DNA of 64,000 nt, taken from contig CAUWEX010000004.1 of the NCBI GenBank assembly GCA_963557965.1, positions 649 through 64,648 of the forward strand. The letters are read 5' to 3'. The notes under the pieces are model-generated. The model had not been told where the DNA came from. It worked only from the letters and a program-made list of their open reading frames with translations, and ran no database searches. Every line of letters begins with the position of its first letter. Position 1 is the first letter of the stretch. Made by a program: the position numbers and the translations under genes. Origin of the DNA: an uncultured Clostridia bacterium (lineage in GTDB: Bacteria > Bacillota > Clostridia > TANB77 > CAG-508). Below are positions 33,053 to 61,293 of this stretch, one piece after another.

Positions 33053-33084
33053 AGACCATCAATGAATTAAGGCAAAAATATAAT

Positions 33085-37283: not shown

Positions 37284-37446
37284 AAAAAACTGTGGTTATA
37301 TCTACTATGGTAGAATAAGAGAAGGTTTAGATAGAAACAAACCATGTCCATTAGTTAAGACATTAACTATAAAATATAAAATAGATAATTAAATTTGTTA
37401 GTAGGTATTATTATATTCGAAAGGGAACTTAATTTAGAACTGTTTT

Positions 37447-37476
37447 AAGTAGTACATTTGATTGTACTACTTTTTT
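37447..37476. terminator. Bidirectional hairpin terminator shared by the TR transcript (+) and the RT gene (-)
   Basis: aagtagtaca tttgat tgtactactt is a perfect 10-bp stem followed by a T run. The RT stop codon (37467-37469) lies inside the stem. Confidence 0.75.
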
Positions 37477-38432: not shown

Positions 38433-38505
38433 ATGTAACTCCTATAGAACTAATTTACAACTTTAAATATATAACATTATATGTAAGATATTAACAGCTA
38501 ATATC

Positions 38506-38534
38506 ATTATAAGATAGTTAGATATAATATGCAA
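38506..38534 (-). promoter_or_regulatory. Sigma-A promoter for the RT gene (TTGCAT-17-TATAAT on the minus strand)
   Basis: Reverse complement reads cTTGCATattatatctaactatctTATAATg. AGGAG RBS precedes the RT ATG. Confidence 0.6.
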
Positions 38535-38641
38535 GACAAATGGCAAAAATTGTTAAACAATAAATTTACGATAATTAAAGAATGTTAAATAATTAATAAA
38601 ATTATAGTAATTTAACGTAAAAATGTGTTATAATAGTAGAA

Positions 38642-38734
38642 CCACATCCAATAACAAAAGCAGATTATGAGAATAATTCGAACCCTTTTGTACAAGAAGT
38701 AATGAATACGGGAATTGAACTAAAAGTAGCATGA
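38642..38734 (+). pseudogene. 3'-terminal remnant (31 codons) of a second MNT-type nucleotidyltransferase gene
   Basis: PHPITKADYENNSNPFVQEVMNTGIELKVA* parallels the C-terminus of the MNT at 41190-41516 (LPFSIEEYNEPKGIMEEILNTGIELKVA*). It is preceded directly by a copy of the promoter repeat (aaaatgtgttataat). Confidence 0.7.
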
Positions 38735-38775
38735 GAAACAAAAAAGACGACTAGCAATGCTAGCCATCTTTTTTG

Positions 38776-39705
38776 TTATCTATCGAAAGTTTTTATAAAA
38801 TTATCAACTAAAGATTTAAAAGTATGTATAGGAAAATTAAATAGGTGTTTTATAACTTCGAAAGTTTTATCAATATAATTCTTTAGGTTATGATTTTCCT
38901 GTTTTAAAGTAATATTTTCTTTTTGTAGATTTTCTACTTTATTTATAGCAAAATAGGCTTTGCTTAGTTGTAATTTTAATTTATTATTATTTTCAATTAA
39001 AGTTTGATTTTGCTTAAGTAATAAATGTGTATCTTGTGTAGGAATACATTGTTCTTGTTTATTTTGTAGTTCATATTTTATATTATCATAATTAGTAACT
39101 TGTTTTAATGTTTTTATTGGGATATGGACATTATCTTTAGTATTGCCGCGTTCTAAATCAAAACCATGTTCAATCATATAAGTATAAAAACTGTCTTGTA
39201 ATTTCCTATAACTGTCTTTGCCTTTCCAATATTGACTACAAGCAATTTTTTTAATAGGATTACCATTTTTATCTTTTGTATGAACAACTGGAACAAAAAC
39301 CAAGTGTAAATGTGGAGTGGTTTCATCCATGTGAACTTTGCTAGATAAAATATATTTTTCACCTAAATTTTTATAATTTGCAACAAAGTTATGAGCAGTT
39401 TGAAAATATCTTTTTGTTTCTTCTTCTCCAATACTTTTGAAAAAGTCGTTATCAGAAGTAATTATAAATTCACATACTACGTTTGTTGTTTTTATTATTC
39501 TTCCTTGTAAGTTATTTTCCTGTATTAATTTTTTTAGTGCATTTGAATATGTAGTGTTACACTGTTTAATTGAATAATTTTTTATTAAATTATTTTTACT
39601 AATATCTTTGTTTGAGTAATTAGTATTTTTTCTTTCGTTATGTTTATATAATCCTGCTAAATTATCTTTCTTATAATTAGCATTTCTAATAATAGCATAA
39701 CTCAT
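38776..39705 (-). CDS. mob: MobV-family (Pre/Mob) relaxase
   Basis: N-terminal MSYAIIRNANYKKDNLAGLYKHNERK and the HxDE...PHxH motif (VHMDETTPHLHLVFVPV). C-terminal coiled coil. Confidence 0.88.
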   Translation of the reverse strand: MSYAIIRNANYKKDNLAGLYKHNERKNTNYSNKDISKNNLIKNYSIKQCNTTYSNALKKLIQENNLQGRIIKTTNVVCEFIITSDNDFFKSIGEEETKRYFQTAHNFVANYKNLGEKYILSSKVHMDETTPHLHLVFVPVVHTKDKNGNPIKKIACSQYWKGKDSYRKLQDSFYTYMIEHGFDLERGNTKDNVHIPIKTLKQVTNYDNIKYELQNKQEQCIPTQDTHLLLKQNQTLIENNNKLKLQLSKAYFAINKVENLQKENITLKQENHNLKNYIDKTFEVIKHLFNFPIHTFKSLVDNFIKTFDR

Positions 39706-46280: not shown

Positions 46281-46972
46281 AAGTAATGTGGGAGACTTTG
46301 ATAAGATGCTGACTATGTTAACACCAGGATTGCGGGAAAATATCTTGTGTTGCTAAAGGGGCTAGAAGACCTAAAAGTGCCCTTTTAGCAGGAACACAGA
46401 TGTTTTGCTTTGGCGAATATTTAGTATACAAAGGAACAAACACATTCCACATAAATTCAGTAGAGCCAATTGAAATTTTTTATAAATTGCGAACAGATTT
46501 GGACAAGTTAAAATATGCAGTACATATTAATAAAATAGTACAAGATGTAACACATGAAAATCAAAATAGTTATTATATTTTACAACTATTATTAAATACG
46601 TTATACACAATATCAGAAACAGATAAAAATTTGGATTTAATACTTAGCATATTTAAATTACGATTGTTGTGCATTTTAGGATTTAGTCCAAAAATACATT
46701 CATGTGTAAATTGTAAAGAAAAGGAAAATATACAGTACTTTAGCATAAAAGACGACGGAATAAAATGCGGAGCTTGTGGCAAACAAGATAAATCAGCAAT
46801 TACAATTAATGAAAGCACCAAAAATGCTATAATATATACAATCACAGCACCTGCTAAGAAGTTATATTCTTTTACTATTAAAGATGAAGCGTTGGAAGAA
46901 TTTAATTTAGTAGCAAAATTATATTTTAATCAAAAACTTGAAAAAGAATATAAATTGGAAAATCTATTTTAA
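46243..46972 (+). pseudogene. recO: DNA repair protein RecO, interrupted by a 1-nt frameshift at ~46333
   Basis: Frame 1 reads M(AS)MKLTGIILSESNVGDFDKMLTMLTPGL then stops. Frame 2 continues GKISCVAKGARRPKSALLAGTQMFCFGEYLVY... with the zinc-finger CVNC...CGAC. An extra C in ttgCggg separates the two. Confidence 0.8.
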
Positions 46973-49294: not shown

Positions 49295-49402
49295 TAACAC
49301 CTATATTTTTCGTTGATTTTATACACCATTTGCGTTAAAATTAAATAGATGATTATTTTGTAAAAAAATATATAAAAATAAATTTAAAGGGAGGAATTTG
49401 TC

Positions 49403-50503
49403 ATGGCTACAAATCCAATGCAAAGAAAAGCAAGAAACTCATTTTTACTAGGAATGCTAGTAATGCTATTGATATCAGGGGTGATTATAGCATTATTATT
49501 TATGCAATTGATGGGGAAAATGAAAGAAGAAAAAGAAGAATTAGCAAACAGCTATACAGCATATGTATTAAATCAAGATGTTAAAGCAGGGCAAACTATA
49601 ACTGAAGATATGTATGTTACTAAAACTGTAAATAAAGCATTAGTACCAAGTAATGCAACTAGTGATTTAAGCATTATTCAAAATTATGCATTAAAAGATA
49701 AAGAAGGAAATGCAGTAACTACAGAATATCGTACAGCAAATGGAGAAACTGTTGCAACAATGTATATTACATTAAATAATACAAAATATGAAGTTAAAAA
49801 AGAAGAAGAAACAGACAGCTATTATATAACAAGAAATGGGCAAAAAGAATATTTAGATCTAGTATCAGCACCATTAATAGCAAAAGTAAACATGAAAAAA
49901 AATACACTAATAACAACAGATTTACTTTCACAAGGTACAGTTAAAGATGATATTAGAAGACAAGAATATAATGTTGTAATAATGCCACTTGATTTATCTA
50001 CAGGAGATTATATTGATATAAGACTTATGTTACCAAATGGACAAGATTTTGTAGTAGTTTCTAAAAAAGAAGTAGAAATTCCTAGTGTAGGAGGAGTAGA
50101 TTCATCAGATACAATGTGGGTTAACTTATCAGAAGATGAAATTTTACATATGAGTTCTGCAATAGTTGATGCAGCTAGCTTAAATGGAGCAAAAATTTAC
50201 GCAACTAAATATACAGATCCAGGAATACAAAATGCATCTACGCCAAACTATGTAGTAAGAGATGCAGTATCTAAAGAATTACAAGCAGATCCAAATATAT
50301 TAGCAAGCGCTATGGAAACATTAAGAGCAAGATATAACGCAATAGATACAGGAACAATGAATGCATATAGAGAAAATGCTCTTAATAGCCAAGGAGATCA
50401 AATACAAACAAACTTAGAAACTAAAATGGAAGAAAGTATAACAAATTCAAAAACTACAAGAAAAGACTACTTAGAAGGATTAACAGGAGCAACAACAGAG
50501 TAA
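49403..50503 (+). CDS. Tad-like locus: CpaB/RcpC-like protein (N-terminal TM, SAF-like domain)
   Basis: TM anchor, then YVLNQDVKAGQTITEDMYVTKTV..LVPSNA (SAF-like) and TGDYIDIRLMLPNGQD (CpaB beta-clip-like). Confidence 0.6.
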   Translation: MATNPMQRKARNSFLLGMLVMLLISGVIIALLFMQLMGKMKEEKEELANSYTAYVLNQDVKAGQTITEDMYVTKTVNKALVPSNATSDLSIIQNYALKDKEGNAVTTEYRTANGETVATMYITLNNTKYEVKKEEETDSYYITRNGQKEYLDLVSAPLIAKVNMKKNTLITTDLLSQGTVKDDIRRQEYNVVIMPLDLSTGDYIDIRLMLPNGQDFVVVSKKEVEIPSVGGVDSSDTMWVNLSEDEILHMSSAIVDAASLNGAKIYATKYTDPGIQNASTPNYVVRDAVSKELQADPNILASAMETLRARYNAIDTGTMNAYRENALNSQGDQIQTNLETKMEESITNSKTTRKDYLEGLTGATTE

Positions 50504-50515
50504 AGGAGAAGAAAC

Positions 50516-51214
50516 ATGAAAAAAATAGGGTTTATAGGGGCTTATGATAAAACAGATTTAATTATAAATATAGCAAAAATATTAACAGTGTTAAATCAAA
50601 AAGTACTAGTAATTGATGCTACAACAAATCAAAAAGCTAGATATGTGGTGCCTGTTATAAACCCTACAACAGCATATGTAACAGACTTTGAAGATATGGA
50701 CATTGCTGTGGGGTTTTCAGGCACAGAAGAAATAAAAAGATATCTTGGTGTTGCAGATGATCAAGATATGGAATATGACGTTATGCTTGTAGATACAGAT
50801 AACTACAAAGGATTTGAAGATTTTAAATTAACAGAAGCACAGAAAAACTACTTTGTGACTTCTTTTGATGTATATTCATTAAAAAAAGGGCTTGAAATAT
50901 TAAGCGGTCTATCTGAACCAATAAGTATAACAAAAATTTTATTTTCTAAAGAAATGCTAAAAGAAGAAGACGATTACTTGAACTTTTTATCACTTGGATA
51001 TAAAACGATATGGGATGAATATAGAATTTATTTTCCAATCGAAAATGGCGATTTAAGTGTTATTTATGAAAATCAAAGAGTTGCAAAAATAAAGTTTAAG
51101 AAATTAAGTGTTCAGTATAAAGATGGACTAGCATATATATCAGAAGAAATACTAGGGGACGCAAATGAGGCGAGAGTTAGACGAGCCATAAAAACAATAG
51201 AAAAAGGAGTATAG
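50516..51214 (+). CDS. Tad-like locus: TadZ/CpaE-like ParA/MinD-fold protein with degenerate P-loop
   Basis: IGFIGAYDKTDLIINIAKILTVLNQKVLVIDAT has the ParA/MinD layout but no GKT/S Walker A lysine motif. Confidence 0.5.
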   Translation: MKKIGFIGAYDKTDLIINIAKILTVLNQKVLVIDATTNQKARYVVPVINPTTAYVTDFEDMDIAVGFSGTEEIKRYLGVADDQDMEYDVMLVDTDNYKGFEDFKLTEAQKNYFVTSFDVYSLKKGLEILSGLSEPISITKILFSKEMLKEEDDYLNFLSLGYKTIWDEYRIYFPIENGDLSVIYENQRVAKIKFKKLSVQYKDGLAYISEEILGDANEARVRRAIKTIEKGV

Positions 51215-51216
51215 AA

Positions 51217-52056
51217 ATGTCAATTATTACATTTTGGAATGATGGTAAAGAGCAAACAGGCAAAACACTATCAATGGCTGCAATTGCAACATATATGGCT
51301 ATTGAACATAATTACAAGATTTTGGTGATTTCTACAGGACATAAAGATGAAGTATTAGAACGTTGCTTCTGGGAAGAAAAGAAAAAAAGAAGAAATCTTG
51401 GTTTGTTTGGACCTAACACTAATACTGGAATTGAAGATGGAATAGTTGGGATTGAAACTGTTATGAGAAGTAACAGATTACAACCTGAAAATATTACCAA
51501 TTATACGAAAATTATATTTAAAGACAGATTAGAAGTGCTACCATCATTTAAAGGTGAAAAGATAGAATATGAAGAAATAAAAAGAAATTATCCAGATTTA
51601 ATAAATTTGGCTAATAAATACTATGATATGGTTTTTGTGGATTTGGATGCAGAGCTTGGACCTGAAATAGCAGACGCTATTATACAAAGTTCTAATCTTA
51701 TAGTTGCAAATCTAAGCCAAAGACTATCTAGTATAAATAAATTTATGAAGCTAAGAGAAGAAAATCCGATATTAAATTCAAAAAAATCATTAATATTGAT
51801 AAATAGATATGACAAATTTTCTAAATACACTATAAAAAATATGACAAGATATATGGGTGAAAAAAATAAATTATTAACAATACCATACAATACATTATTT
51901 TTTGAAGCATGTGAAGAAGCAAAACTTCCAGACTTATTTTTAAGGTTTAGAAGAGGTATTGATGAAGAAGATAGAAACTATATCTTTACAACAGAAGTAA
52001 AAAGAGCTTCGGATGCAATTGTGTATAGAATACAAGATTTAGCAATGAAAATTTAG
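51217..52056 (+). CDS. Tad-like locus: TadZ/CpaE-like ParA/MinD-family ATPase
   Basis: ITFWNDGKEQTGKTLSMAAIATYMA (Walker A-like) and MVFVDLDAE (Walker B-like). Confidence 0.6.
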   Translation: MSIITFWNDGKEQTGKTLSMAAIATYMAIEHNYKILVISTGHKDEVLERCFWEEKKKRRNLGLFGPNTNTGIEDGIVGIETVMRSNRLQPENITNYTKIIFKDRLEVLPSFKGEKIEYEEIKRNYPDLINLANKYYDMVFVDLDAELGPEIADAIIQSSNLIVANLSQRLSSINKFMKLREENPILNSKKSLILINRYDKFSKYTIKNMTRYMGEKNKLLTIPYNTLFFEACEEAKLPDLFLRFRRGIDEEDRNYIFTTEVKRASDAIVYRIQDLAMKI

Positions 52057-52081
52057 CAAGTAAGGAGGGTGGACTAGAACC

Positions 52082-54061
52082 ATGACAATAACCAATATTG
52101 TTTTAATACTAGTTGTTATAGCTGTTGCAGGATATGTAATATACTATAGCATTAAAAAGAAAAAAGAAGCACCAGTTGAAACAGCAGTAAATGTTGATGA
52201 TAAAACTTATACAATCGATATGATGATGAATTTTGTCAAAAGAAGATTAGATGAAATTACAAAAATCAACTTATATGATATAGGTCTTTCAGAAGAAGAA
52301 TTAAAAAGAAGAAAAAATAAAAAGTATGAATTGAAAAAAGCATTAAAAGGCTGTACATATGGTGATGTAAATGACAAAAAATATGTTAAAGAATTAATTT
52401 TTGACTTATTAGAAAAAGAATATGGGGTTACAGAAGCCAATATATCAAAAGCAATTCCTTTTGATATTCCATCTTTACTTACAGCACAAGACAAATTCGA
52501 TATTTTGATTTATGCATATAAAAAAGAATTTGGATATGAAGCTTTAACAGAATTAATAAAAAAATACAGCTTAGCTGAATTAAAATATGTAGAAGGAGAG
52601 ACAAAACCTTCTTATGTTATAACACCAGAAGAAATTGAAGATATTTACGAAAAAGAAAAAATAGTATTATCATTTGCTGATAAATTAAGTGTAGTTGTAC
52701 AAAGGATATATCAACGTTACAAAGGATATAGTGCTATAGATGAAGTAAGAGACATGAATATAGACGGTGTATCTGGAGGTGTATCTGGTTTACCTGAAAG
52801 CTTTTTAAGCCAAGTTGCACAAACAGATGGAGATTATTTAAACCAAGTAACAGAACATAAAGTTCCGAGAGCATGTGATAGTATCTGGATATTTTTCCAA
52901 GGTAAATCAATACGTTTAGCATTTTTATCATTTGGTACAGAATCAGAATTAAAAAGGGTATGTCAAAACATTTATAAATACAATAATCCAGGACAATTAT
53001 CAGATACAAATGGTTATAAAATTAACGAAATGAAAGATGGTTCTCGTGTTGTTGTTGTAAGACCAAGTTTCTCTGAGACATGGGCATTCTTTGTAAGAAA
53101 ATTTGACGTTAAAAGAGCAACATTAGAGCAATTGGTAAGAGATCCGGGAAAAGATGATGCAATAGAATTGTTAAAATATTTAGTAAAAGGAGCAAGAATT
53201 ACAGCAATTACTGGAGAGCAAGGATCTGGTAAAACAACATTGCTTATGGGTATGATAGAAAATATCTACGAAACAATGAACATAAGGGTTCAAGAAACAG
53301 CATTCGAGCTTCACTTAAGAAAAATATATCCAACAAGAAATATTTTAACTTTCCGTGAAACAGATACAATTTCTGGACAAGAAGGTCTGGATGTTCAAAA
53401 GAAAACTGACGGTTCTGTTAACATCATAGGTGAGGTTGCAACAGACCCCGTAGCATCTTGGATGATACAAGCAGCTCAAGTTGCATCTAAATTTACATTA
53501 TTTACTCACCATGCTAAAACATTCCCTAACTTAGTAACTGCATTAAGAAACTCAATGTTAAGAACAGGGGTGTTTACAGACGAAAAAACAGCAGAAGAAC
53601 AAGTTGTACAAGTTTTAAACTTTGATATACACCAAGTAAAAGACTTTAGAGGAAAAAGATATATAGAAAGAATTACAGAATGTATTCCAATAGAAAGTAA
53701 AAGCGAATACAATTTTGATCACAGAAAAGAAAAGACGTTAGAAGGAAAATTTGATAAATTTTTTGATAATGCTACAAGATTTTTTGAAAAATCAACAGAT
53801 AAGCAGTTATATACATATAGAAACATAATGGAATATATTGATGGGGAATATGTAATAACAAACCCAATATCAGATCAAAACTTAAGAGATATGAGAAACA
53901 ACATGGATGCTGCAGATGTAGAGCAGTTTGATAAATTCGTTGAAAAACATTGGGGAAAACAATTAAACAAAACAGCGATGGAAAAAGAAACAGTAACAGT
54001 ATCAGCAGAAGCAGAAGAAAAGCCAAAAAGAAGAGGAAGAAAAAAGAAAACAGAAGTTTAA
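52082..54061 (+). CDS. Tad-like locus: CpaF/TadA-family secretion ATPase with N-terminal TM anchor and basic C-terminal tail
   Basis: Walker A ITGEQGSGKTTLLMGM, Asp/Walker B region SVNIIGEVATD, His box LFTHHAKT. The N-terminus MTITNIVLILVVIAVAGYVIYYSIKKKKE is a predicted TM helix. The tail is KPKRRGRKKKTEV. Confidence 0.8.
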   Translation: MTITNIVLILVVIAVAGYVIYYSIKKKKEAPVETAVNVDDKTYTIDMMMNFVKRRLDEITKINLYDIGLSEEELKRRKNKKYELKKALKGCTYGDVNDKKYVKELIFDLLEKEYGVTEANISKAIPFDIPSLLTAQDKFDILIYAYKKEFGYEALTELIKKYSLAELKYVEGETKPSYVITPEEIEDIYEKEKIVLSFADKLSVVVQRIYQRYKGYSAIDEVRDMNIDGVSGGVSGLPESFLSQVAQTDGDYLNQVTEHKVPRACDSIWIFFQGKSIRLAFLSFGTESELKRVCQNIYKYNNPGQLSDTNGYKINEMKDGSRVVVVRPSFSETWAFFVRKFDVKRATLEQLVRDPGKDDAIELLKYLVKGARITAITGEQGSGKTTLLMGMIENIYETMNIRVQETAFELHLRKIYPTRNILTFRETDTISGQEGLDVQKKTDGSVNIIGEVATDPVASWMIQAAQVASKFTLFTHHAKTFPNLVTALRNSMLRTGVFTDEKTAEEQVVQVLNFDIHQVKDFRGKRYIERITECIPIESKSEYNFDHRKEKTLEGKFDKFFDNATRFFEKSTDKQLYTYRNIMEYIDGEYVITNPISDQNLRDMRNNMDAADVEQFDKFVEKHWGKQLNKTAMEKETVTVSAEAEEKPKRRGRKKKTEV

Positions 54062-54094
54062 GTACTAAATATAAAAAGGAGGTGCTAATTAAAA

Positions 54095-56185
54095 TTGGAC
54101 AATACATTTATATACTATATAATGGGTGGGGCAGCAGGAGCCTTTGTAATTATCATACTTTTATATTACGTACTATCTAAAAAGATGCAAACTTCTGAAT
54201 ATAAAAAGATTCAAAGATTACAACAAGGAACAAAAGAAAAGAAATTTTCAACAGAAGTATTATTTCAAAAATTATACTTAACTTATATAAAAATACCTTT
54301 TATAAAAAGATATGCTTTAAAGATTAGAAGAAGGCTAGAAATTATCAATATAGATGATGAATACAACACAAGAAAAGGAACAGCAAAAATATTGACAAAA
54401 TCACTTTTAATAGTAATCCCAATAATGGTAATTACTATTATGATTACAATGCAAAACTTTTTGCTAATGAGCATATTACTATTGTTTGAATTATTTATGA
54501 TTGATACTTTTATAGATGGTTCAGTTGATAAAATAGATAATAATATATTAAAAGAACAAATAGACTTCTTTTCTGAAATAAGACATGCATATCATGAATA
54601 TAACATGGTTGAAGAAGCGATATATCAAGTATCGCAAGATGATGAAAAAGATATTTCACGTCAAGGTGAAAAAATATATGAAATCTTAATATCTGATGAC
54701 CCTGAAACAGAATTAGAAAAATATTATGATATAGCACCTAATAATTTCTTAAAAGAATTTGCAGGGGTATCATATTTAACAAAAGAGTTTGGTGATAGAA
54801 AAGTTGATGGAGCATCATTATATTTAAAAAATGTAAACAACATTACACAGGAAATGCAGCTAGAAATATTAAAAAGGGACAAATTAAACTATGTATTTCA
54901 AAGTTTATCAGTAATATCAATTGCGCCGGTATTATTGTTAGAACCCCTAAAAAACTGGGCAATATCAAACTTTTCATTTACAGCGAGCTGGTATAATGGA
55001 AAAGCTGGTATGATAGTACAAATTTTAATATTATTAATTACATTTGTATCTTATATTTTAGTAAGAAAACTAAAAGATAATGGTTCAACTGCTATGAATA
55101 CTAAAAATACAGAGAACCCATGGCAAGCAAGAATATATAGAAAAAAACCGATAAAGAAAATAGTTGACTTATTTATTCCTAAAAAAGGAACAAAAGAATA
55201 TAGAAAAGTACAACAAATGTTGAAAGATGCCGCATCACCACAAAAAATGGAGTGGCTATACATAAATAGAATATGTATTGCAATAGTTACATTTTTTGCT
55301 TCGGTTATTCTATTTACACAGTTACATCAAGTTGCGATAAACTATATTTATACTGAGCCGACCACAGAATATGACATAATGGGAGGCTTGTCGGATAAAG
55401 ACGAACAGAAAGCTTTAGAATTAACAAAACAAGATAATATTATACTTGATAAATTTAGAGGAAAAACTAAAACGACACAGCAGCAAATAGAAAAAGCAGT
55501 TGCAAAAGAAAAATTTTACGAAGAAGCAAGCGATGAAGAAATAGTTGCAGCAGCAGAAAGAATTTATGGGAAATTACAAGTTATAAATACAGAATATATG
55601 AAATGGTTTGAATTACTACTGGCATTTGTTTTCTCAATACTTGGCTATATGGCACCACTTGGAATTTTATTCTTCCAAGTTAAAATGAGACAATTGGAAA
55701 TGGAAGATGAAGTAATGCAATTCCAAACAATAATCTTAATGCTTATGCGAATTGAGAGAGTAAATGTTGAAATCATATTAGAATGGTTAGAAAGATATTC
55801 CGATATATTTAAACCATCAATCACAAAATGTGTTAATAACTATGAAGCTGGAGCTTGGGAAGCTCTAGAAGCTATGAAAGACGAAATAACGTATTTACCA
55901 TTGATTAGAATTGTAGAAAGCTTACAAGCAGCAGTAGAAAAAATACCAATAAAAGATGCGTTTGATGAATTAGATTCAGAAAGAGATTATTACCAAGAAA
56001 AGAGAAAAGAATCAAATGACAGACTTATAAAAAGAAAAGGAATGATAGGAAAAGCTATAGGTTTTGCACCAATGGTTACATTGTTTGTAGGATATTTAAT
56101 TATTCCATTGGTATTTATAGGACTAACAAGTATGTCAACATCATTTACAAAAATGACTGCAACAGGTGGCGCTGGAATTAAATAA
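54095..56185 (+). CDS. Tad-like locus: large polytopic platform protein, TadB/TadC (T2SS-F)-like
   Basis: 696 aa with several TM segments. C-terminal region IILEWLERYSDIFKPSITKCVNNYEAGAWEALEAMKDEI...LIRIVESLQAA...ESNDRLIKRKGMIGKAIGFAPMVTLFVGYLIIPL has the T2SS-F layout. Confidence 0.6.
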   Translation: MDNTFIYYIMGGAAGAFVIIILLYYVLSKKMQTSEYKKIQRLQQGTKEKKFSTEVLFQKLYLTYIKIPFIKRYALKIRRRLEIINIDDEYNTRKGTAKILTKSLLIVIPIMVITIMITMQNFLLMSILLLFELFMIDTFIDGSVDKIDNNILKEQIDFFSEIRHAYHEYNMVEEAIYQVSQDDEKDISRQGEKIYEILISDDPETELEKYYDIAPNNFLKEFAGVSYLTKEFGDRKVDGASLYLKNVNNITQEMQLEILKRDKLNYVFQSLSVISIAPVLLLEPLKNWAISNFSFTASWYNGKAGMIVQILILLITFVSYILVRKLKDNGSTAMNTKNTENPWQARIYRKKPIKKIVDLFIPKKGTKEYRKVQQMLKDAASPQKMEWLYINRICIAIVTFFASVILFTQLHQVAINYIYTEPTTEYDIMGGLSDKDEQKALELTKQDNIILDKFRGKTKTTQQQIEKAVAKEKFYEEASDEEIVAAAERIYGKLQVINTEYMKWFELLLAFVFSILGYMAPLGILFFQVKMRQLEMEDEVMQFQTIILMLMRIERVNVEIILEWLERYSDIFKPSITKCVNNYEAGAWEALEAMKDEITYLPLIRIVESLQAAVEKIPIKDAFDELDSERDYYQEKRKESNDRLIKRKGMIGKAIGFAPMVTLFVGYLIIPLVFIGLTSMSTSFTKMTATGGAGIK

Positions 56186-56203
56186 ATTTAAGGAGGATAA
56201 CAC

Positions 56204-56950
56204 ATGGAAAATGCATCAAAGGCTTTGATTATAGCTGGAAGTGTATTAATAGCGTTAATGATAATAGGTGCATTAGTATTGATGTTTAGCAATTTAACAA
56301 ATTACCAGAACACTAATATAGATACAACTAGAACAGCTCAAATTGCACAATTTAATAGCAAATATGAAACTTATAATAGACAAGATGTGCGAGGAAGTGA
56401 GTTATACTCCTTATTAAATAAAGTTATAGATTACAATAGGAGAGAGTCTGTAGAAGGAACGGGATGGTCTGATAAAGGTCAAACCGTTTCGTATGAACAA
56501 ATGAAAATAATATTTAATATAGATAGAACTAAATTAAGTGCAGATGGAAAGAATAGATTATTTAAAAGTAGTAGTTATACAATAGAGAGAAACACAAATG
56601 CATTTGAAGTTGAAATTAAGGAAACAGTTGACGGCTTAGAAAAAAAATATGGCCAAAATTCTTTAACAAACTTAACAACTGGACTGACTTCAATATTTAT
56701 AGATGATACGAAAGATAAAGATGAACAACAAATGGCTTTAAACAAATTTAAATCTGCTATAAAGTCAAATAGAATAAATGCAACTTGGGACGACATAAAG
56801 CCAGGTGGAAAAATTAGAGAAGATGTATATAAATATTATGAGTATATTCAATTTAAAAGGGCATATTTTAAATGTACAGGTACAGAATATAATCAAAATA
56901 CAGGAAGAATTATAAAACTAAACTTTGAATTTACTGGAAAATTTAATTAA
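56204..56950 (+). CDS. Tad-like locus: pilin-like paralogue 1 (MENASKAL N-terminus, 248 aa)
   Basis: MENASKALIIAGSVLIALMIIGALVLMF followed by the shared FNSKYETYNRQDVRGSELYSLLNKVIDYN motif. Strong RBS AAGGAGG. Confidence 0.6.
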   Translation: MENASKALIIAGSVLIALMIIGALVLMFSNLTNYQNTNIDTTRTAQIAQFNSKYETYNRQDVRGSELYSLLNKVIDYNRRESVEGTGWSDKGQTVSYEQMKIIFNIDRTKLSADGKNRLFKSSSYTIERNTNAFEVEIKETVDGLEKKYGQNSLTNLTTGLTSIFIDDTKDKDEQQMALNKFKSAIKSNRINATWDDIKPGGKIREDVYKYYEYIQFKRAYFKCTGTEYNQNTGRIIKLNFEFTGKFN

Positions 56951-56964
56951 TAGGAGTATAAAAT

Positions 56965-57414
56965 ATGGAAAATGCATCAAAAGCATTGCTTATGGCTGCT
57001 GGGGTGCTAATAGGGATATTAATATTATCATTAGCAGTATTCTTATTTACAAACTTTGGCTCAGCATCAGCTGAAATTAACAAACAAAATGAAATAAAAA
57101 GAATAAATGAATTTAATGTACAATTTACTGTATATGAAGGAAAAGAATGTACAATACATGATATAGTTTCGGTTGCAAATTTAGCTATGAATAATAATTC
57201 TAATTATTCTTTAACTGCACAAGCAGACAACAATTATTATATTTCTGTTAATATAAAATCAGGACAAGCTGATTTACAAGAAATTTTAAAAGAAAATGAT
57301 AAAGTAAATGAGTTAATAATAGATGAAACTAATAAAAAATATAGATGTAATGTCGAGATAAGTGAGAATACTAAAAGAGTAAAAACAGTAAATTTTATAG
57401 AAATTAAACAATAG
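56965..57414 (+). CDS. Tad-like locus: pilin-like paralogue 2 (149 aa)
   Basis: MENASKALLMAAGVLIGILILSLAVFLF followed by FNVQFTVYEGKECTIHDIVSVANLAMNNN. Confidence 0.6.
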   Translation: MENASKALLMAAGVLIGILILSLAVFLFTNFGSASAEINKQNEIKRINEFNVQFTVYEGKECTIHDIVSVANLAMNNNSNYSLTAQADNNYYISVNIKSGQADLQEILKENDKVNELIIDETNKKYRCNVEISENTKRVKTVNFIEIKQ

Positions 57415-57423
57415 AGGATTTAT

Positions 57424-57855
57424 ATGAAAAAAATAGCAATATTTTTCTTATGTGTAATTATTATTATAGTAGGGATGTCGTATATGTACTTAAACTACAA
57501 AGCTAATTATCACGAAGCTAAAAGAGAAAATGAACAATTTTCAAGCTACTACAATAAAGAGTTTAAAGGAACAGTAGTTGCAACTTTAATAAATAAAGCA
57601 TATGACAATAATTTAACACAGAATGTATCAAAAAACACAAAAGGAAAATTTATAGAAAATGACAATAACTCAATAAAAATAGAAGTGAAAATGTTAGATA
57701 TAGATAAAACATATGATATGGAAACTTTATATTCAGGAGGAATTGATAATTTTGTAAAATATTATGGACAAATAACTTTTAAATGTACAAAAATAGAATA
57801 TCATCAAAAAACTGGAAAAGTTAAATATATGTTAATCGAACAAATTACGCAATAA
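57424..57855 (+). CDS. Tad-like locus: related small membrane-anchored protein with a different N-terminus (143 aa)
   Basis: MKKIAIFFLCVIIIIVG anchor, but the same downstream motif FSSYYNKEFKGTVVATLINKAYDNN. Confidence 0.5.
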   Translation: MKKIAIFFLCVIIIIVGMSYMYLNYKANYHEAKRENEQFSSYYNKEFKGTVVATLINKAYDNNLTQNVSKNTKGKFIENDNNSIKIEVKMLDIDKTYDMETLYSGGIDNFVKYYGQITFKCTKIEYHQKTGKVKYMLIEQITQ

Positions 57856-57938
57856 ATTTTAAATAGTTATTAACATTACCAATTGAAAAATATTGGTGGG
57901 AAAATATAAACAAAAGTAAAAAAAGGGAGGAATTTATT

Positions 57939-58367
57939 ATGGAGAATGCATCAAAAGCATTAATTATCGCAGGTGCAATATTACTTGCAATTTTAATTAT
58001 TTCATTAGGAATAATGATTTACCAACAAGCAGCAGGAGTTGTAAACAGCAATGCTATGAGTGGTGTGGAGATACAACAATTTAACAGTCAATTCACACAA
58101 TATGAAGGAACTAATGTAAGAGGTGCTCAAGTTAATGCACTATTACAATTAATTCAACAAAATAATGTGCAATATCAGGATGATACAACAAAGCAAATTA
58201 CTGTAAAGGTTAATGCTACACAATGGCAAACAGGTAACAAACCAAGTGGAACAATAACACAAAGTGGATATGCCAAGGCAAATACAGGAGCTACATATAA
58301 TGTAACTTCAAAGACAAATGAAAAAACAGGATTAATTAATGAAATAACAATTACAAATGCAAAATAG
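57939..58367 (+). CDS. Tad-like locus: pilin-like paralogue 3, candidate major subunit (142 aa)
   Basis: MENASKALIIAGAILLAILIISLGIMIY followed by FNSQFTQYEGTNVRGAQVNALLQLIQQNN. It is the only member preceded by an 83-bp spacer. Strong RBS GGGAGG. Confidence 0.6.
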   Translation: MENASKALIIAGAILLAILIISLGIMIYQQAAGVVNSNAMSGVEIQQFNSQFTQYEGTNVRGAQVNALLQLIQQNNVQYQDDTTKQITVKVNATQWQTGNKPSGTITQSGYAKANTGATYNVTSKTNEKTGLINEITITNAK

Positions 58368-58387
58368 TCTAGTAAGGAGGGGATATT

Positions 58388-59032
58388 ATGGAAAATGCAG
58401 CAGAAGCATTAAAAATGGCAGCAGCCGTATTAATATTTGTGTTAGCACTATCTATAACTATCAACTCCTTTACTGAAACCAGAATTGCAGCAACAACAAT
58501 TTTAGAATACAAGGATAGAGAGTATAATTTTGATTATGTAGAAGATAATGGTACTACAGCAAGGATAGTAGGATTAGAAAGTATAGTTCCAACAATTTAT
58601 AAAGCATATAAAGAAAACTATAAAATTGTATTTGATAGCAGTGTACTAGAAGATGGCGTTTATCAAAAAATTGATGAAACAGGAAAACCGCAACCTATAA
58701 ATTACATAGATTTACAAAAAGAAGTATTAGGCAGCGATACACAAAAAGAACAATTTATTAAGGCATTATTATATGGAAAGAAATACAAATCATCTAAAGA
58801 TGACCCTTCAAATTTTAAGATAGTGAAAGATACATTTGAAAAAAATTTTAAAATTATATTGAACGAAATAGGATTATATGATAGAATAAGAAATATAAAG
58901 CTCAAAGAAAGTATAGGTATATACTACCTAGAAGAAGTAAACGATACTCAAGAAAATGATACAAACTCAAATGTACCAGATGCCAATAAAACAGAAAAAA
59001 GGGTAATAACTTATACAAAACCAAAACCATAA
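58388..59032 (+). CDS. Tad-like locus: pilin-like paralogue 4 (214 aa)
   Basis: MENAAEALKMAAAVLIFVLALSITINSF N-terminus with a divergent C-terminal domain. Confidence 0.55.
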   Translation: MENAAEALKMAAAVLIFVLALSITINSFTETRIAATTILEYKDREYNFDYVEDNGTTARIVGLESIVPTIYKAYKENYKIVFDSSVLEDGVYQKIDETGKPQPINYIDLQKEVLGSDTQKEQFIKALLYGKKYKSSKDDPSNFKIVKDTFEKNFKIILNEIGLYDRIRNIKLKESIGIYYLEEVNDTQENDTNSNVPDANKTEKRVITYTKPKP

Positions 59033-59066
59033 ATGATACTAGTTAAAGTATCTAAAGGAGGAAAAA

Positions 59067-59606
59067 ATGGGAGATACATTAATTACTGTAATAGCAATAG
59101 TACTAGCTGCTATATTAATGTTTGTGTTTCCGCTAATGACAATGTCAGATAGGACGGATGATGTATCACAATTAGCGGTAGAAACAGCAACAACAGATTT
59201 TGTGGATGATGTAAGGACAACAGGAAGATTATCAATGGACAAGTATAGTAAATTTGTTGAAACTATTTCAGCAACAGGAAATAGTTATGATGTAGAAATG
59301 GAACTCAATGTTTTAGATGAAAATCCAGGAAAGAAAACAACTCAAGCTGAAACAACTAAAATCGGAGAAAATGTATATTATACGATGTATACATCTCAAA
59401 TCTTAGATAAAATTAATCCATCTAATGGAGTAACAAAGATATTAGCGTTAAAAGAAGGGGATTTGTTTTCTGCTAGTGTAAAAAATAGCAATACAACATT
59501 ATCACAACAATTAAAGAATTTCTTTTACTCTGTAACAGGAAATGATACATATACAATTGCAGCAGAACATGGTGGAATAGTTACAGCAAATGGAAGTGGA
59601 AATTAA
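59067..59606 (+). CDS. Tad-like locus: membrane-anchored minor-pilin/TadE-like candidate (179 aa)
   Basis: MGDTLITVIAIVLAAILMFVFPLMTM hydrophobic N-terminus. No recognisable catalytic motifs. Confidence 0.4.
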   Translation: MGDTLITVIAIVLAAILMFVFPLMTMSDRTDDVSQLAVETATTDFVDDVRTTGRLSMDKYSKFVETISATGNSYDVEMELNVLDENPGKKTTQAETTKIGENVYYTMYTSQILDKINPSNGVTKILALKEGDLFSASVKNSNTTLSQQLKNFFYSVTGNDTYTIAAEHGGIVTANGSGN

Positions 59607-59673
59607 GATAGTAAAACTTATTAGCTTGTAATATGTATATTACAAGCTTTTATAATACAAAGGAAAGTGAAAT

Positions 59674-61293
59674 ATGAAAATTCAAAATTTAGCCGTAATA
59701 TTTATAATAATAATATTACCAATTTCATTAATATTAACTGCATATGTGCAAAATCAGGTAAAAACACTTGAATTACAAATGAATTATGATTTTAAATTGA
59801 CACAAGCGACCTATGATGCTGTAAAGGCTTTTCAACTAAATACAGTAAATAGTAGTACGTCTGATTTGGCCAATTCTAAATTACGAGATATTAAAGCGTC
59901 TGTAAATACATTTTTTAATTCAGTTGCAACTCAATTTAATTTATCCGGATATAATAAAGATATTTTAAAGACCTATGTGCCAGCACTTGTATATACGATG
60001 TATGATGGATATTATATTTATTCTCCATTTACAAACACTATACAAGGGGAGGATGAAGGTTCTACATATAAAAACGGAGATAAAATATCAGATTTGAAAC
60101 CATACATTCATTATAGTACGAGATATGTAAAAGGAGGAATAGATGTAGTTATAACATATTCATTAGATAACTATATAACAGTAAAAGGATTAATTAATGG
60201 CACTGCTGTCAACAAGGCAGGATATTTATTAAATAATATAGATGATAATGGCAATATAATAAAATATAGAGGAATAGAGATACCTACAGAAATACTAACA
60301 GAAACGAATGCTAAATTCAGCAACGATGACGGACTTACAGCAACAGGAGAGAATACTACATATATTTACAATAAAATAAATGGTGTTAAATATTACAAAG
60401 ATAATAATAGTGATGAATGGTTTTCAATAATAAATGGAACTAAATATAAACAAAATACCCAATATAGAAATGAAAATAATGCGGGACAATTGTATTATAG
60501 AGAAGCTAGAGAATTTACAGATTGGATAAATAAAAATCTAAGTTCATTAACATCTCAAGATGCAATTGATGAAGAAGGAAACAAATTAGCGGAAAATTCT
60601 AAATTATTTAATAATAGCGATAAGATTTTTGAACTACAAAGAGGGGATATTTCTATAGAAGACCCAAATTCGAATTTTAATCAGCATAGGTCAGCCGTAA
60701 TACGTTACTCAATAGAAAAGAATTTATCTATAGCAATAGCAAATTACAATAACTACTCTAATGTAACAACCAATTTTCAGATGCCAACTTTAACAGAAGA
60801 AGATTGGGAAAAGATTTTAAATAATGTGTCTGTAATAAGTTTTTTACAAGGCCTAAGTATTGGTGGAAAGGTTTATAATGGATATTCAATTGTTACGAAT
60901 ACGAAAACAGAAGAAGTGGTAAATACAGATTCAATATATATTATAGCAGATGGAGAATATCATAGAGCAACTGAAAATGGCTTGAAAAGTAAAAATATAG
61001 AAAAAGCGTTTATGAATGTTGATTTTGAAAGAAAATCTGTAACGAATAATGATAAAACATCTTATTTTTATCCACATTGGGAAACAGGCTGTTATAATTC
61101 AATAGTTACCCAAAATGATGTTAATGATTTAACTGATGATAAATACAAAGGAAGCATTTATAAATATATGCAAGATCAAGGAGGAAGCTTAGCTCAAGTA
61201 TATTATACAGCCTTAGGAAGAGAAAGATATACCATGTATAGAACGAATAATAATGTAGAAGAAGAAAACAAAAAATTCCAAAAAAACGAATAA
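59674..61293 (+). CDS. Tad-like locus: large membrane-anchored protein (539 aa), TadG/tip-adhesin-like candidate
   Basis: MKIQNLAVIFIIIILPISLILTAYV anchor then a large Asn/Tyr-rich extracellular domain. A palindromic hairpin (agcttgtaatat/atattacaagct, 59623-59648) precedes it. Confidence 0.4.
   Translation: MKIQNLAVIFIIIILPISLILTAYVQNQVKTLELQMNYDFKLTQATYDAVKAFQLNTVNSSTSDLANSKLRDIKASVNTFFNSVATQFNLSGYNKDILKTYVPALVYTMYDGYYIYSPFTNTIQGEDEGSTYKNGDKISDLKPYIHYSTRYVKGGIDVVITYSLDNYITVKGLINGTAVNKAGYLLNNIDDNGNIIKYRGIEIPTEILTETNAKFSNDDGLTATGENTTYIYNKINGVKYYKDNNSDEWFSIINGTKYKQNTQYRNENNAGQLYYREAREFTDWINKNLSSLTSQDAIDEEGNKLAENSKLFNNSDKIFELQRGDISIEDPNSNFNQHRSAVIRYSIEKNLSIAIANYNNYSNVTTNFQMPTLTEEDWEKILNNVSVISFLQGLSIGGKVYNGYSIVTNTKTEEVVNTDSIYIIADGEYHRATENGLKSKNIEKAFMNVDFERKSVTNNDKTSYFYPHWETGCYNSIVTQNDVNDLTDDKYKGSIYKYMQDQGGSLAQVYYTALGRERYTMYRTNNNVEEENKKFQKNE

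What the first reader, a model, noticed from the sequence alone, without database searches (positions are those of the whole stretch)
49403..61293. Twelve-gene Tad-like type IV filament locus lacking Flp pilin and prepilin peptidase, with a non-canonical pilin family
The first five genes give a recognisable Tad/Cpa core: a CpaB-like SAF protein, two TadZ/CpaE-like ParA-fold proteins (one with a degenerate P-loop), a CpaF/TadA-type ATPase and a large TadB/C-like platform protein. The rest is not canonical. There is no small Flp-type gene with a G/xxxxEY motif, and I checked the short intergenic gaps. There is no TadV/CpaA peptidase and no secretin, the latter as expected for a monoderm. Instead seven tightly packed genes encode N-terminally anchored proteins. 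Four of them start with the nearly invariant MENA(S/A)(K/E)AL followed by ~20 hydrophobic residues. That head has no basic leader ending in Gly. The closest analogy is an archaeal-style class III signal (cleavage after K-A, i.e. MENASKA|LIIAG), which is intriguing because Tad systems are thought to derive from archaeal pili. The operon ends ~110 bp before spoIVB in a spore former, so a role at the spore or forespore surface cannot be excluded.
Basis: partly seen in the sequence, partly recalled or inferred. Interest (0 to 1): 0.85.

Follow-up and report, generated by a model that had tools for sequence, protein, structure and literature searches.

The report
Published TANB77 Tad-like pilus gene cluster
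This is the twelve-gene Tad-like pilus cluster already reported in 2024 as the hallmark of the uncultured gut bacterial order TANB77; its filament subunits have no cleavable leader and no processing peptidase nearby, which nobody has yet explained.

Summary
The twelve co-directional genes at 49403-61293 are real and exactly as described. Profile searches support a CpaB-like SAF protein, at least one ParA-type protein and a CpaF/TadA-type ATPase. The 696-aa platform assignment has only weak sequence support. Four paralogs start with M-E-N-A-x-x-A-L. In-frame stop codons 6-75 nt upstream, with no start codon in between, and strong ribosome-binding sites rule out any leader. The 64-kb window contains no Flp-like ORF and no A24 peptidase.

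The cluster is not new. Kim et al. (Nat Commun 2024, PMC11680825) described the same 12-gene "pilus gene cluster" in 122 of 129 TANB77 species, with the same Tad assignments. They showed that the last protein, the ortholog of gene 12, activates dendritic cells through TLR4.

Three points go beyond that paper:
- The leaderless, invariant subunit head and the missing peptidase.
- An ATPase more conserved than Era or MurC, alongside fast-evolving subunits.
- Complete homologous modules on 35 large plasmids of cultured Firmicutes (Paenibacillus, Lysinibacillus, Clostridium botulinum/argentinense, Butyrivibrio). This contradicts the claimed exclusivity to TANB77 and offers tractable model organisms.

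The suggested sporulation link is only conserved gene order. Archaeal-type cleavage remains untested.

The parts
49295..49402 (+). Upstream intergenic region holding the only candidate sigma-70-like promoter (TTGATT-17-TAAAAT at 49313-49341) and the ribosome-binding site of gene 1
   Evidence: 9 of 12 match. Promoter-like sites across the region are no more frequent than in shuffles (84 vs 79.6+/-9.6), so this is weak. Sequence.
49403..50503 (+). g1: N-terminally anchored SAF-domain protein, CpaB/RcpC-like (366 aa)
   Evidence: SAF 20.8 bits (threshold 21) and TIGR03177 CpaB E 3e-4. TM helix at residues 14-32. The Thermobacillus ortholog hits SAF at 30.4 bits and CpaB at E 4.8e-11. It corresponds to protein 927 'CpaB' of PMC11680825.
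50516..51214 (+). g2: ParA-like protein with a degenerate P-loop (GAYDKTD) (232 aa)
   Evidence: No significant Pfam hit (AAA_31 E 0.13). hhalign to g3 gives E 2.7e-4. The C. argentinense homolog keeps GADRTGKS. It corresponds to protein 928 'TadZ' by structure in PMC11680825.
51217..52056 (+). g3: ParA/MinD-type ATPase with an intact Walker A (GKEQTGKT) (279 aa)
   Evidence: CbiA E 4.4e-5, 23.9 bits, just below the threshold of 25.4. No TadZ-specific signal in hhalign (E 0.14). It corresponds to protein 929 'CpaE' by structure in PMC11680825.
52082..54061 (+). g4: CpaF/TadA-type secretion ATPase with an N-terminal membrane anchor (659 aa)
   Evidence: T2SSE 27.1 bits, above the threshold of 24.9. 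The only PDB hits are CpaF, E 3.5e-10, with Walker A GSGKTT, GEV and a His box aligned. TM helix at residues 6-24. Median identity across TANB77 genomes is 84%.
54095..56185 (+). g5: polytopic all-helical membrane protein, putative fused TadC/TadB platform (696 aa)
   Evidence: 7-8 TM segments. No Pfam, NCBIfam or PDB hit. hhalign of residues ~118-296 to a TadB/C mini-profile gives E 0.0018 over 172 columns; the best of 30 shuffled and the reversed controls was 0.062. The gene is split ~433+242 aa in relatives. The AF2 model was unusable (pLDDT 46). Structural homology to TadC/TadB is reported in PMC11680825.
56204..56950 (+). g6: MENASKAL-headed subunit paralog with a long C-terminal domain (248 aa)
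   Evidence: hhalign to g9 gives E 2e-24. In-frame stop 6 nt upstream. No database hits.
56965..57414 (+). g7: MENASKAL-headed subunit paralog (149 aa)
   Evidence: hhalign to g9 gives E 5e-29 over 134 columns. In-frame stop 6 nt upstream.
57424..57855 (+). g8: small N-terminally anchored or secreted paralog without the MENA head (143 aa)
   Evidence: Its globular part is homologous to g6 (E 5e-15) and g9 (E 4e-6). It corresponds to protein 934, 143 aa with a 'signal peptide', in PMC11680825.
57939..58367 (+). g9: candidate major subunit (142 aa). Invariant N-terminal 35 residues, variable alpha/beta C-terminal domain
   Evidence: It follows the largest upstream gap (83 nt) and has a full-length GGGAGG ribosome-binding site. 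It is tandemly duplicated in about 21 related loci. There are 7384 homologs, none with a Pfam domain or a name. Residues 1-35 are near-invariant in homologs that are 57-99% identical overall. The AF2 model has pLDDT 88: helix 2-32, a linker, then a globular domain. Foldseek found no match in PDB or BFVD.
58388..59032 (+). g10: MENAAEAL-headed subunit paralog (214 aa)
   Evidence: hhalign to g9 gives E 2e-10, N-terminal 45 residues only. The clade consensus is ME-n-a-x-[D/E]-A-L-K.
59067..59606 (+). g11: separate family of N-terminally anchored protein (MGDTLITVIAIV...) (179 aa), kept in all plasmid modules
   Evidence: Homologs in 5 of 5 plasmid loci. No relation detected to g9, Flp or TadE/F. 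Median identity 65%.
59623..59648 (+). Hairpin with an 11-bp stem followed by a T-rich tail, between g11 and g12
   Evidence: Function unknown; a possible attenuator. Not followed up.
59674..61293 (+). g12: large N-terminally anchored protein (539 aa), candidate tip or minor subunit; ortholog of 'pilin 938'
   Evidence: TM helix at residues 7-25. Length varies from 235 to 1239 aa in relatives. Homologs in plasmid modules. PMC11680825 reports a TadE/PilV-like N-terminal quarter and TLR4-dependent activation of dendritic cells by the recombinant ortholog.

Best explanation
This locus is the conserved chromosomal 'pilus gene cluster' of the uncultured gut order TANB77. It is a very divergent, monoderm, Tad-like member of the type IV filament superfamily.

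Inferred mechanism:
- A membrane-tethered CpaF-type hexameric ATPase (g4) drives a polytopic platform (g5, a fused TadC/TadB-like protein).
- The platform lifts single-pass subunits out of the membrane and stacks them into a surface fibre through their invariant hydrophobic N-terminal helices.
- g9 is the major subunit. g6, g7, g8 and g10 are minor paralogs. g11 and g12 are a priming or tip complex, with g12 as the exposed, size-variable tip or adhesin.
- g1 (SAF/CpaB-like) forms the conduit through the wall. g2 and g3 (ParA-type) position or scaffold the machine.
- The subunits are made without a leader: a 7-residue polar head, M-E-N-A-x-x-A, then the hydrophobic helix. No peptidase travels with the system. 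They are therefore either used uncleaved or trimmed by an unlinked enzyme.
- The likely role is adhesion or aggregation and host contact in the gut.

Shown: gene content, homologies, absence of a leader, conservation pattern and distribution. Inferred: filament formation, subunit roles and function.
For: - The ATPase passes the T2SSE threshold and CpaF is its closest solved relative.
- g1 is CpaB/SAF-like and g3 is ParA-like.
- g5 matches TadB/C with clean negative controls.
- The gene order is colinear with rcpC-tadZ-tadA-tadB-tadC-tadE/F/G (compare).
- Five paralogous small single-pass proteins have an invariant N-terminal helix and divergent globular domains.
- The motor is 84% conserved, against Era 75% and MurC 67% in the same genomes. 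The exposed subunits are only 33-45% conserved.
- g9 is frequently duplicated.
- The order is strictly colinear in about 80 species.
- The same cluster was independently annotated as a Tad-like pilus from AlphaFold/Foldseek evidence, and the g12 ortholog is immunostimulatory (PMC11680825).
- Homologous plasmid modules are followed by SLH or cell-wall-binding proteins, a giant Big_2/DUF5704 surface protein and a GGDEF protein, which is a surface-adhesion context.
Against: - No filament has ever been seen; TANB77 is uncultured.
- The subunits show no sequence or fold similarity to any known pilin: Pfam, NCBIfam, a PDB profile search, Foldseek against PDB and BFVD, and hhalign against Flp/TadE/F/G.
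- The AF2 model of g9 has a break between the TM helix and the globular domain, not a continuous pilin alpha-1 helix.
- The platform has no T2SSF hit in Pfam, and my own model of it failed.
- The defining class III signal and its peptidase are absent from the window.
Confidence: 0.75

Rival explanations
1. The same machine acts as an accessory to DNA transfer: a mating-pair or aggregation pilus for conjugation, or a DNA-uptake pilus. It would be plasmid-derived and now fixed in the TANB77 chromosome, rather than a general adhesion organelle.
For: - Complete homologous modules sit on 35 large Firmicutes plasmids.
- In C. argentinense the module lies directly downstream, on the same strand, of a VirB4/TraG-type ATPase, a VirB6-like protein and an NlpC/P60 hydrolase.
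- In pTHECO01 it lies about 8 kb from a coupling protein and a relaxase.
- The best NCBIfam hit of the ATPase is the 'conjugal transfer-associated TadA' family.
- There is a precedent: the IncI thin type IVb pilus (R64, from my own recall; TP114, PMC9045228, title and abstract only).
Against: - The TANB77 locus has no relaxase, coupling protein or VirB4 nearby. It always sits between a HAD hydrolase and spoIVB.
- pTHECO01 carries a separate, complete Tcp-like T4SS, so the module is not itself the DNA channel.
- Three other plasmid loci show no adjacent conjugation genes.
- All 35 plasmids are typed non-mobilizable.
Confidence: 0.12
2. The locus is not a filament machine. It is an ATPase-driven membrane complex whose single-pass partners stay in the membrane, for example a pseudopilus-type secretion or wall-remodelling device.
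For: The subunits lack every recognisable pilin feature apart from an N-terminal hydrophobic helix. No leader or peptidase is present. Type II secretion systems show that such machines can work without a long external fibre (established knowledge).
Against: Five paralogs share an invariant helix while their ectodomains diverge fast, and the presumed major subunit is tandemly duplicated. This is the pattern of exposed polymer subunits. No candidate substrates are conserved in the locus.
Confidence: 0.1
3. The system is sporulation-associated and builds a structure on the forespore or spore surface, co-regulated with spoIVB.
For: The locus lies immediately upstream of spoIVB on the same strand, in the window and in about 65 related loci. 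An alpha/beta SASP gene and spoVG are nearby.
Against: Adjacency is the only evidence. Plasmid homologs have no sporulation neighbours. No sporulation-sigma promoter was identified. spoIVB has its own ribosome-binding site and a variable gap of 1-1197 nt.
Confidence: 0.03

Closest known systems
TANB77 conserved pilus gene cluster (Kim et al., Nat Commun 2024, PMC11680825; proteins 927-938 of CAG-245 sp000435175)
   Same: The same 12 genes in the same order, with near-identical sizes and topologies: 358/231/280/640 (1 TMH)/693 (8 TMH), then seven single-pass proteins, the third of which is 143 aa with a 'signal peptide'. The clade also matches: uncultured, low-GC gut Clostridia. My best genome hits include Ca. 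Merdicola, which belongs to TANB77/CAG-508.
   Different: This is a different species, and gene 6 is longer here (248 vs 165 aa). The paper does not mention the missing Flp or peptidase, the leaderless invariant head, or plasmid homologs, and it presents the cluster as essentially exclusive to TANB77.
Tad/Flp (type IVc) pilus of Aggregatibacter, Caulobacter, Bifidobacterium
   Same: It has a CpaF/TadA-type ATPase, a CpaB/RcpC-like SAF protein, ParA-type accessory protein(s), a TadB/C-like platform, and a colinear order with anchored accessory proteins downstream.
   Different: There is no Flp pilin with G/XXXXEY, no TadV and no secretin or TadD. The platform is fused and undetectable by Pfam. 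The ATPase carries a membrane anchor and a ~270-residue N-terminal extension. The subunits have a globular domain and no leader.
Archaeal type IV pili (Epd-like) with class III signals cut by EppA/PibD/FlaK
   Same: Both have a short N-terminal polar segment with Lys two residues before the hydrophobic helix and Ala or Gly at the would-be -1 position (KA|L, KA|I, KG|L). Archaeal platforms are single two-domain proteins, and Tad is thought to derive from this lineage (PMC6668835).
   Different: Gene 10 ([D/E]-A-L) and the C. argentinense homolog (K-K-I) break the motif. The head, including an acidic residue at position 2, is as invariant as the helix, which is unlike a discarded leader. No peptidase was found, and the ATPase is closest to bacterial CpaF.
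Thin type IVb pilus of IncI plasmids (TP114, PMC9045228, title and abstract only; R64 from my own recall)
   Same: It is a plasmid-borne type IV filament module that sits beside, but is separate from, the conjugative T4SS, as seen in pTHECO01 and C. argentinense pRSJ17_1.
   Different: IncI systems have canonical prepilins and their own peptidase. Here neither is present, and the TANB77 copy is chromosomal with no conjugation genes.
MSH pilus loci
   Same: Their loci systematically lack a prepilin peptidase and borrow one from another system (PMC6668835). Absence in cis is therefore not unprecedented.
   Different: MSH pilins still carry canonical class III signals with Gly-1. These subunits do not.

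Membership tests
Type IV filament superfamily | PilB/GspE/CpaF-family secretion ATPase (Pfam T2SSE) | tested here: met
   PF00437 27.1 bits, above the threshold of 24.9. CpaF E 3.5e-10 with Walker A, the catalytic Glu and the His box aligned.
Type IV filament superfamily | Polytopic GspF/PilC/TadB-C platform with T2SSF domain(s) | tested here: inconclusive
   No PF00482 hit in any of 27 orthologs or 3 plasmid homologs, and no PDB hit. hhalign to a TadB/C mini-profile gives E 0.0018 over 172 colinear columns; the best negative control was 0.062 and a true-positive control (TadB/C vs HofC) gave 0.0094. The AF2 model failed. Structural homology is reported in PMC11680825.
Type IV filament superfamily | Subunits made as prepilins with a class III signal (short leader ending in Gly, Glu at +5) | tested here: not met
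   No leader is possible: in-frame stops lie 6-75 nt upstream of the four MENA starts with no intervening start codon. There is no Gly at -1, and the acidic residue is at position 2.
Type IV filament superfamily | Dedicated A24 prepilin peptidase | tested here: not met
   None is in the locus, in the 64-kb window, in the locus or its flanks in the ~85 related chromosomal loci (all genes between HAD and spoIVB correspond to g1-g12), in 5 plasmid loci, or in the annotation of the whole of pTHECO01. Genome-wide absence could not be tested.
Tad/Flp (type IVc) pilus | Flp pilin with G/XXXXEY | tested here: not met
   Motif scan of all ORFs of 25 aa or more in six frames. hhalign of g6, g9 and g11 against Flp gives E 0.14 or worse.
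Tad/Flp (type IVc) pilus | CpaB/RcpC SAF-domain protein | tested here: met
   Window protein: SAF 20.8 bits (threshold 21) and TIGR03177 E 3e-4. Thermobacillus ortholog: SAF 30.4 bits and TIGR03177 E 4.8e-11.
Tad/Flp (type IVc) pilus | TadZ/CpaE localisation ATPase | tested here: inconclusive
   g3 is ParA/CbiA-like at E 4.4e-5, below the Pfam threshold. hhalign of g2 and g3 against TadZ gives E 0.14-0.24. Structural similarity is claimed in PMC11680825.
Tad/Flp (type IVc) pilus | TadE/TadF/TadG pseudopilins | tested here: not met
   hhalign of g6-g12 against TadE/F and TadG gives E 0.02 or worse. Only a partial structural resemblance of the g12 ortholog is reported (PMC11680825).
TANB77 pilus gene cluster (PMC11680825) | Twelve genes of the published sizes, topologies and order, in a TANB77 genome | tested here: met
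   Sizes and TM patterns match Table 1 of the paper. The nearest genomes are uncultured gut Clostridia, including Merdicola, which is TANB77/CAG-508. No published sequence was available for a direct alignment.
Archaeal-type class III signal | [K/R]-[G/A/S] cleavage site before the hydrophobic helix, plus a PibD/FlaK/EppA-type peptidase | tested here: inconclusive
   The motif fits g6, g7, g9 and 4 of 5 plasmid homologs. It does not fit g10 or the C. argentinense homolog. The peptidase cannot be tested outside the window.
Gram-positive conjugative T4SS | VirB4, coupling protein and relaxase in the locus | tested here: not met
   Absent from the window locus and its flanks. Present only beside 2 of the 5 plasmid modules examined.

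The most novel reading that the evidence does not exclude
The MENAxxAL proteins are the first type IV filament subunits that assemble without any prepilin peptidase. The invariant polar head is retained. Its conserved opposite charges (E2 with K6 in genes 6, 7 and 9; analogous pairs in 4 of 5 plasmid homologs) neutralise each other, so the N-terminus can be buried in the fibre core. This would replace the leader cleavage and Glu5 salt bridge used by all other lineages.
Probability: 0.25. Interest if true: 0.85.

Novelty: already known. Interest (0 to 1): 0.5.

Why it matters
The cluster is the signature trait of TANB77. According to PMC11680825, abundance of this gut order predicts response to checkpoint-blockade cancer therapy, and one protein of the cluster, the gene 12 ortholog, enhances anti-PD-1 efficacy in mice. 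Yet no filament has been seen and TANB77 cannot be cultured.

Two points from this analysis have practical value. First, the family is not restricted to TANB77. Full modules sit on plasmids of cultivable, genetically tractable Firmicutes, where filament formation, subunit processing and function can be tested directly. Second, the subunits have no leader and no peptidase travels with the system. If they prove to be used uncleaved, the definition of type IV filaments would change. Nine of the twelve proteins have no significant match in Pfam or NCBIfam.

Tried and rejected
- Foldseek of a confident g9 model (pLDDT 88) against PDB and BFVD found nothing with E below 0.4.
- A PDB profile search with the g9 alignment found nothing.
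- AF2 of g5 with a 15-sequence alignment gave pLDDT 46, so it was not used for fold search.
- Pfam scans of 27 g5 orthologs and 3 plasmid homologs found no T2SSF domain.
- hhalign of the g5 N-terminal half against the C-terminal half found no internal repeat (E 0.15).
- hhalign of g5 against E. coli HofC alone found nothing.
- hhalign of all the small proteins against Flp, TadE/F and TadG found nothing.
- A PHROGs scan of ten of the twelve proteins (g4 and g8 not scanned) found nothing meaningful, so a phage origin was dropped.
- I suspected a link to the pXO16 'tip' conjugation locus. No Bacillus plasmid appears among the 35 that carry the platform, so this was dropped.
- tblastn of E. coli GspO against plasmids, to ask whether the 35 plasmids carry an A24 peptidase, returned Proteobacteria among the organisms listed. 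It is uninformative for Firmicutes.
- The promoter scan gave no more sites than shuffled sequence in this AT-rich DNA.
- No supplementary sequences of the 2024 paper were available for a direct alignment.

Full report
**Observation.** The gaps between them are 2-83 nt, and every gene is preceded by an AGGAGG-type ribosome-binding site. Genes 6, 7, 9 and 10 begin MENASKAL, MENASKAL, MENASKAL and MENAAEAL, each followed by about 20 hydrophobic residues. The first in-frame stop codons lie 6, 6, 75 and 15 nt upstream of these ATGs, and no alternative start lies in between. A longer precursor with a leader is therefore impossible. A six-frame scan of all ORFs of 25 aa or more in the 64-kb window found no Flp-type G-x4-E-Y protein and no classical G-F-T-L-I-E head. 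Only three polytopic membrane proteins turned up: g5, an M50 peptidase and a VTT/DedA protein. phmmer with two TadV sequences found nothing. SpoIVB starts 112 nt downstream.

**The machinery genes.**
- g4 passes the Pfam T2SSE gathering score (27.1 vs 24.9 bits). Its only solved relatives at E<0.01 are CpaF structures (E 3.5e-10), with the Walker A, catalytic Glu and His-box regions aligned. It also carries an N-terminal TM helix.
- g1 is borderline for SAF (20.8 vs 21 bits) and matches the N-terminus of the CpaB model (E 3e-4). Its ortholog on a Thermobacillus plasmid is clear: SAF 30.4 bits and CpaB E 4.8e-11.
- g3 is ParA/CbiA-like (E 4.4e-5) with an intact GKT.
- g2 has no significant hit. 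It aligns weakly to g3 (E 2.7e-4) and has a degenerate P-loop, which is intact (GADRTGKS) in the C. argentinense homolog.
- g5, the presumed platform, fails every standard profile search. It has no T2SSF hit in Pfam for 27 orthologs or 3 plasmid homologs, and nothing in NCBIfam or PDB. My AlphaFold model was unusable (pLDDT 46).
- An hhalign comparison of a diversified g5 alignment with a four-sequence TadB/TadC profile did give a colinear 172-column match. It covers residues ~118-296 (a TM helix, a helical domain, then a Pro-containing TM helix) at E 0.0018. The reversed control and 30 block-shuffled controls reached 0.062 at best, and the true pair TadB/C-HofC scored only 0.0094 with the same thin profiles. 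The platform assignment is therefore plausible but weakly supported by my own tests.

**The subunit genes.**
- hhalign shows that g9, g7, g6, g10 and g8 are paralogs (E 5e-29 to 4e-6). g11 and g12 are separate families. None of them resembles Flp, TadE/F or TadG.
- g9 has 7384 homologs at E<1e-3, none with a Pfam domain or a name, and 5013 representatives at the 50% identity level.
- In homologs that are only 57-99% identical overall, residues 1-35 are almost invariant. All of the top 150 representatives align from residue 1.
- A confident AlphaFold model (pLDDT 88) shows a helix at residues 2-32, a flexible linker and a small alpha/beta domain. It has no Foldseek match in PDB or BFVD.
- g9 is the best candidate for the major subunit. 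It follows the largest upstream gap, has a full-length GGGAGG ribosome-binding site, is the smallest of the paralogs, and is tandemly duplicated in about 21 related loci.

**Comparative genomics.**
- A scan of GTDB species genomes found at least 273 with a relative of the ATPase. The best 80 (77-95% identity) are all uncultured gut Clostridia MAGs, such as Clostridium sp. CAG:575, CAG:389 and Ca. Merdicola.
- Gene order 1 to 12 is strictly colinear in these loci. The locus always lies between a HAD hydrolase and spoIVB, and no extra conserved gene sits inside or beside it.
- In about a dozen loci g5 is split into ~433 and ~242 aa. This recalls the TadB/TadC fission described by Denise et al. 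(PMC6668835).
- Within the same genomes the ATPase is more conserved (median 84%) than Era (75%), MurC (67%) or SpoIVB (60%). The platform is at 67%, and g1, g6, g7, g9, g10 and g12 are at 33-45%. This is the pattern of a functional motor with fast-evolving exposed parts.

**Prior description.** A literature search showed that this cluster is already published. Kim et al. (Nat Commun 2024, PMC11680825) found "a stretch of 10-14 genes" conserved in 122 of 129 TANB77 species. They numbered twelve proteins 927-938, and the sizes and topologies match this window one for one:
- 358 aa, CpaB;
- 231 aa, TadZ;
- 280 aa, CpaE;
- 640 aa with 1 TMH, TadA;
- 693 aa with 8 TMH, with its halves resembling TadC and TadB;
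- six small single-pass proteins, including a 143-aa one with a signal peptide;
- a 621-aa protein with a TadE/PilV-like N-terminus.

Using AlphaFold2 and Foldseek, they proposed that the cluster encodes a Tad-type pilus. Recombinant protein 938, the ortholog of g12, activated dendritic cells through TLR4 and improved anti-PD-1 therapy in mice. Merdicola, one of my genome hits, belongs to TANB77/CAG-508 (PMC13106387). The paper does not mention a peptidase, TadV, a Flp pilin gene, plasmid-borne homologs, sporulation or electron microscopy, and it treats the cluster as essentially exclusive to TANB77.

**What this analysis adds.** First, the family is not exclusive to TANB77. tblastn found full-length homologs of the ATPase (36-61% identity) and of the platform on 35 large plasmids. 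The hosts are Paenibacillus, Lysinibacillus (pBsph), Clostridium argentinense, C. botulinum, C. beijerinckii, Butyrivibrio, Thermobacillus, Cohnella, Alkalihalophilus, Sporosarcina and Cytobacillus. Every platform homolog is annotated as hypothetical.

Five plasmid loci that I inspected share this module: [a ~480-540-aa protein in four of the five loci; ParA-like only weakly, in C. argentinense] - SAF - (g2) - g3 - ATPase - platform - one g9-like subunit - a small protein in three of the five loci - g11-like - g12-like. Downstream follow an SLH or cell-wall-binding protein (four of five), a giant protein (DUF5704 in the three Bacilli plasmids) and a GGDEF protein (four of five).
- In C. argentinense the module directly follows a VirB4/TraG-type ATPase, a VirB6-like protein and an NlpC/P60 hydrolase.
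- In pTHECO01 it lies near a coupling protein and a relaxase. That plasmid also has a separate, complete Tcp-like T4SS and no annotated A24 peptidase among its 146 features.

Second, the subunit heads differ across lineages: MENASKAL, MSTNASKAL, MESPVVKAI, MDSPVVKKI, MDSVTKAI and MGENGRKGL. What is shared is a 6-8-residue polar head, usually with an acidic residue at position 2-3, and a Lys two or three residues before the helix. None has Gly at -1 or Glu at +5.

**Mechanism and rivals.** The best-supported reading is a very divergent monoderm Tad-like filament machine. Its subunits are made without a leader. The K-[A/G] followed by L/I pattern is compatible with archaeal-type cleavage, but gene 10 ([D/E]-A-L) and the C. 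argentinense homolog (K-K-I) break it. The head is also as invariant as the helix, which argues against a discarded leader. Whether the head is retained or removed cannot be decided here. Absence of a peptidase in cis has a precedent in MSH loci (PMC6668835).

I rate a conjugation- or DNA-transfer-accessory role as a minor rival, a non-filament membrane complex lower, and a sporulation role as unsupported, because conserved adjacency to spoIVB is the only evidence for it.

**Verdict.** The locus is an already published system, so the novelty is low. What remains interesting is the unexplained absence of a leader and a peptidase, the medical relevance of the cluster, and the newly noted plasmid homologs in cultivable hosts, which make the question testable.

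Noticed in passing
window 28312-39705: An integrated mobile element, mostly on the opposite strand: tyrosine integrase (28312-29526, -), HTH repressor (31103-31822, -), IS3-type transposase (32525-33906, +), reverse transcriptase (37467-38432, -) and Mob_Pre relaxase (38776-39705, -). GC and AT skew fall to about zero or below at 28-32 kb and 38-40 kb.
   Followed up: partly
window 52082-52160 (g4 residues 1-29): The CpaF-type ATPase has its own N-terminal transmembrane helix, which is unusual for type IV filament motors. It is conserved across the TANB77 clade but missing from the C. argentinense and C. beijerinckii plasmid homologs.
   Followed up: partly
window 59623-59648: A perfect 11-bp-stem hairpin followed by a T-rich tail lies between g11 and g12. 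It may be an internal attenuator separating the large tip-like protein from the rest of the operon.
   Followed up: no
window 54095-56185; L006 6116-8195, L008 5938-8023: The platform is one 696-aa ORF here and in most relatives. In about a dozen related genomes it is two adjacent genes (~433 + ~242 aa), a natural fusion/fission polymorphism like TadB/TadC.
   Followed up: partly
L089 19039-25761; L090 15566-19939; L091 21842-28355; L093 26331-31955: Four of the five plasmid modules inspected are followed by an SLH or cell-wall-binding protein. A giant surface protein comes next (Big_2 + DUF5704 in the Bacilli plasmids; an unannotated ~900-aa protein in the two Clostridium plasmids). A GGDEF protein follows in four of five, often with an HD-domain protein. 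This hints at c-di-GMP-controlled adhesion. None of these genes accompanies the TANB77 chromosomal locus.
   Followed up: partly
window 46400-46972: The recO ORF contains only the RecO C-terminal domain, from residue 31. The usual N-terminal OB-fold domain is not within the ORF, so there may be a frameshift or an unusual start.
   Followed up: no
L098 28896-47035 (pTHECO01): The Thermobacillus plasmid is typed 'non-mobilizable', yet it carries an apparently complete Tcp-like conjugation set: TcpE-family protein, conjugal transfer protein, VirB4-like ATPase, a large membrane protein, glucosaminidase, relaxase and coupling protein.
   Followed up: no
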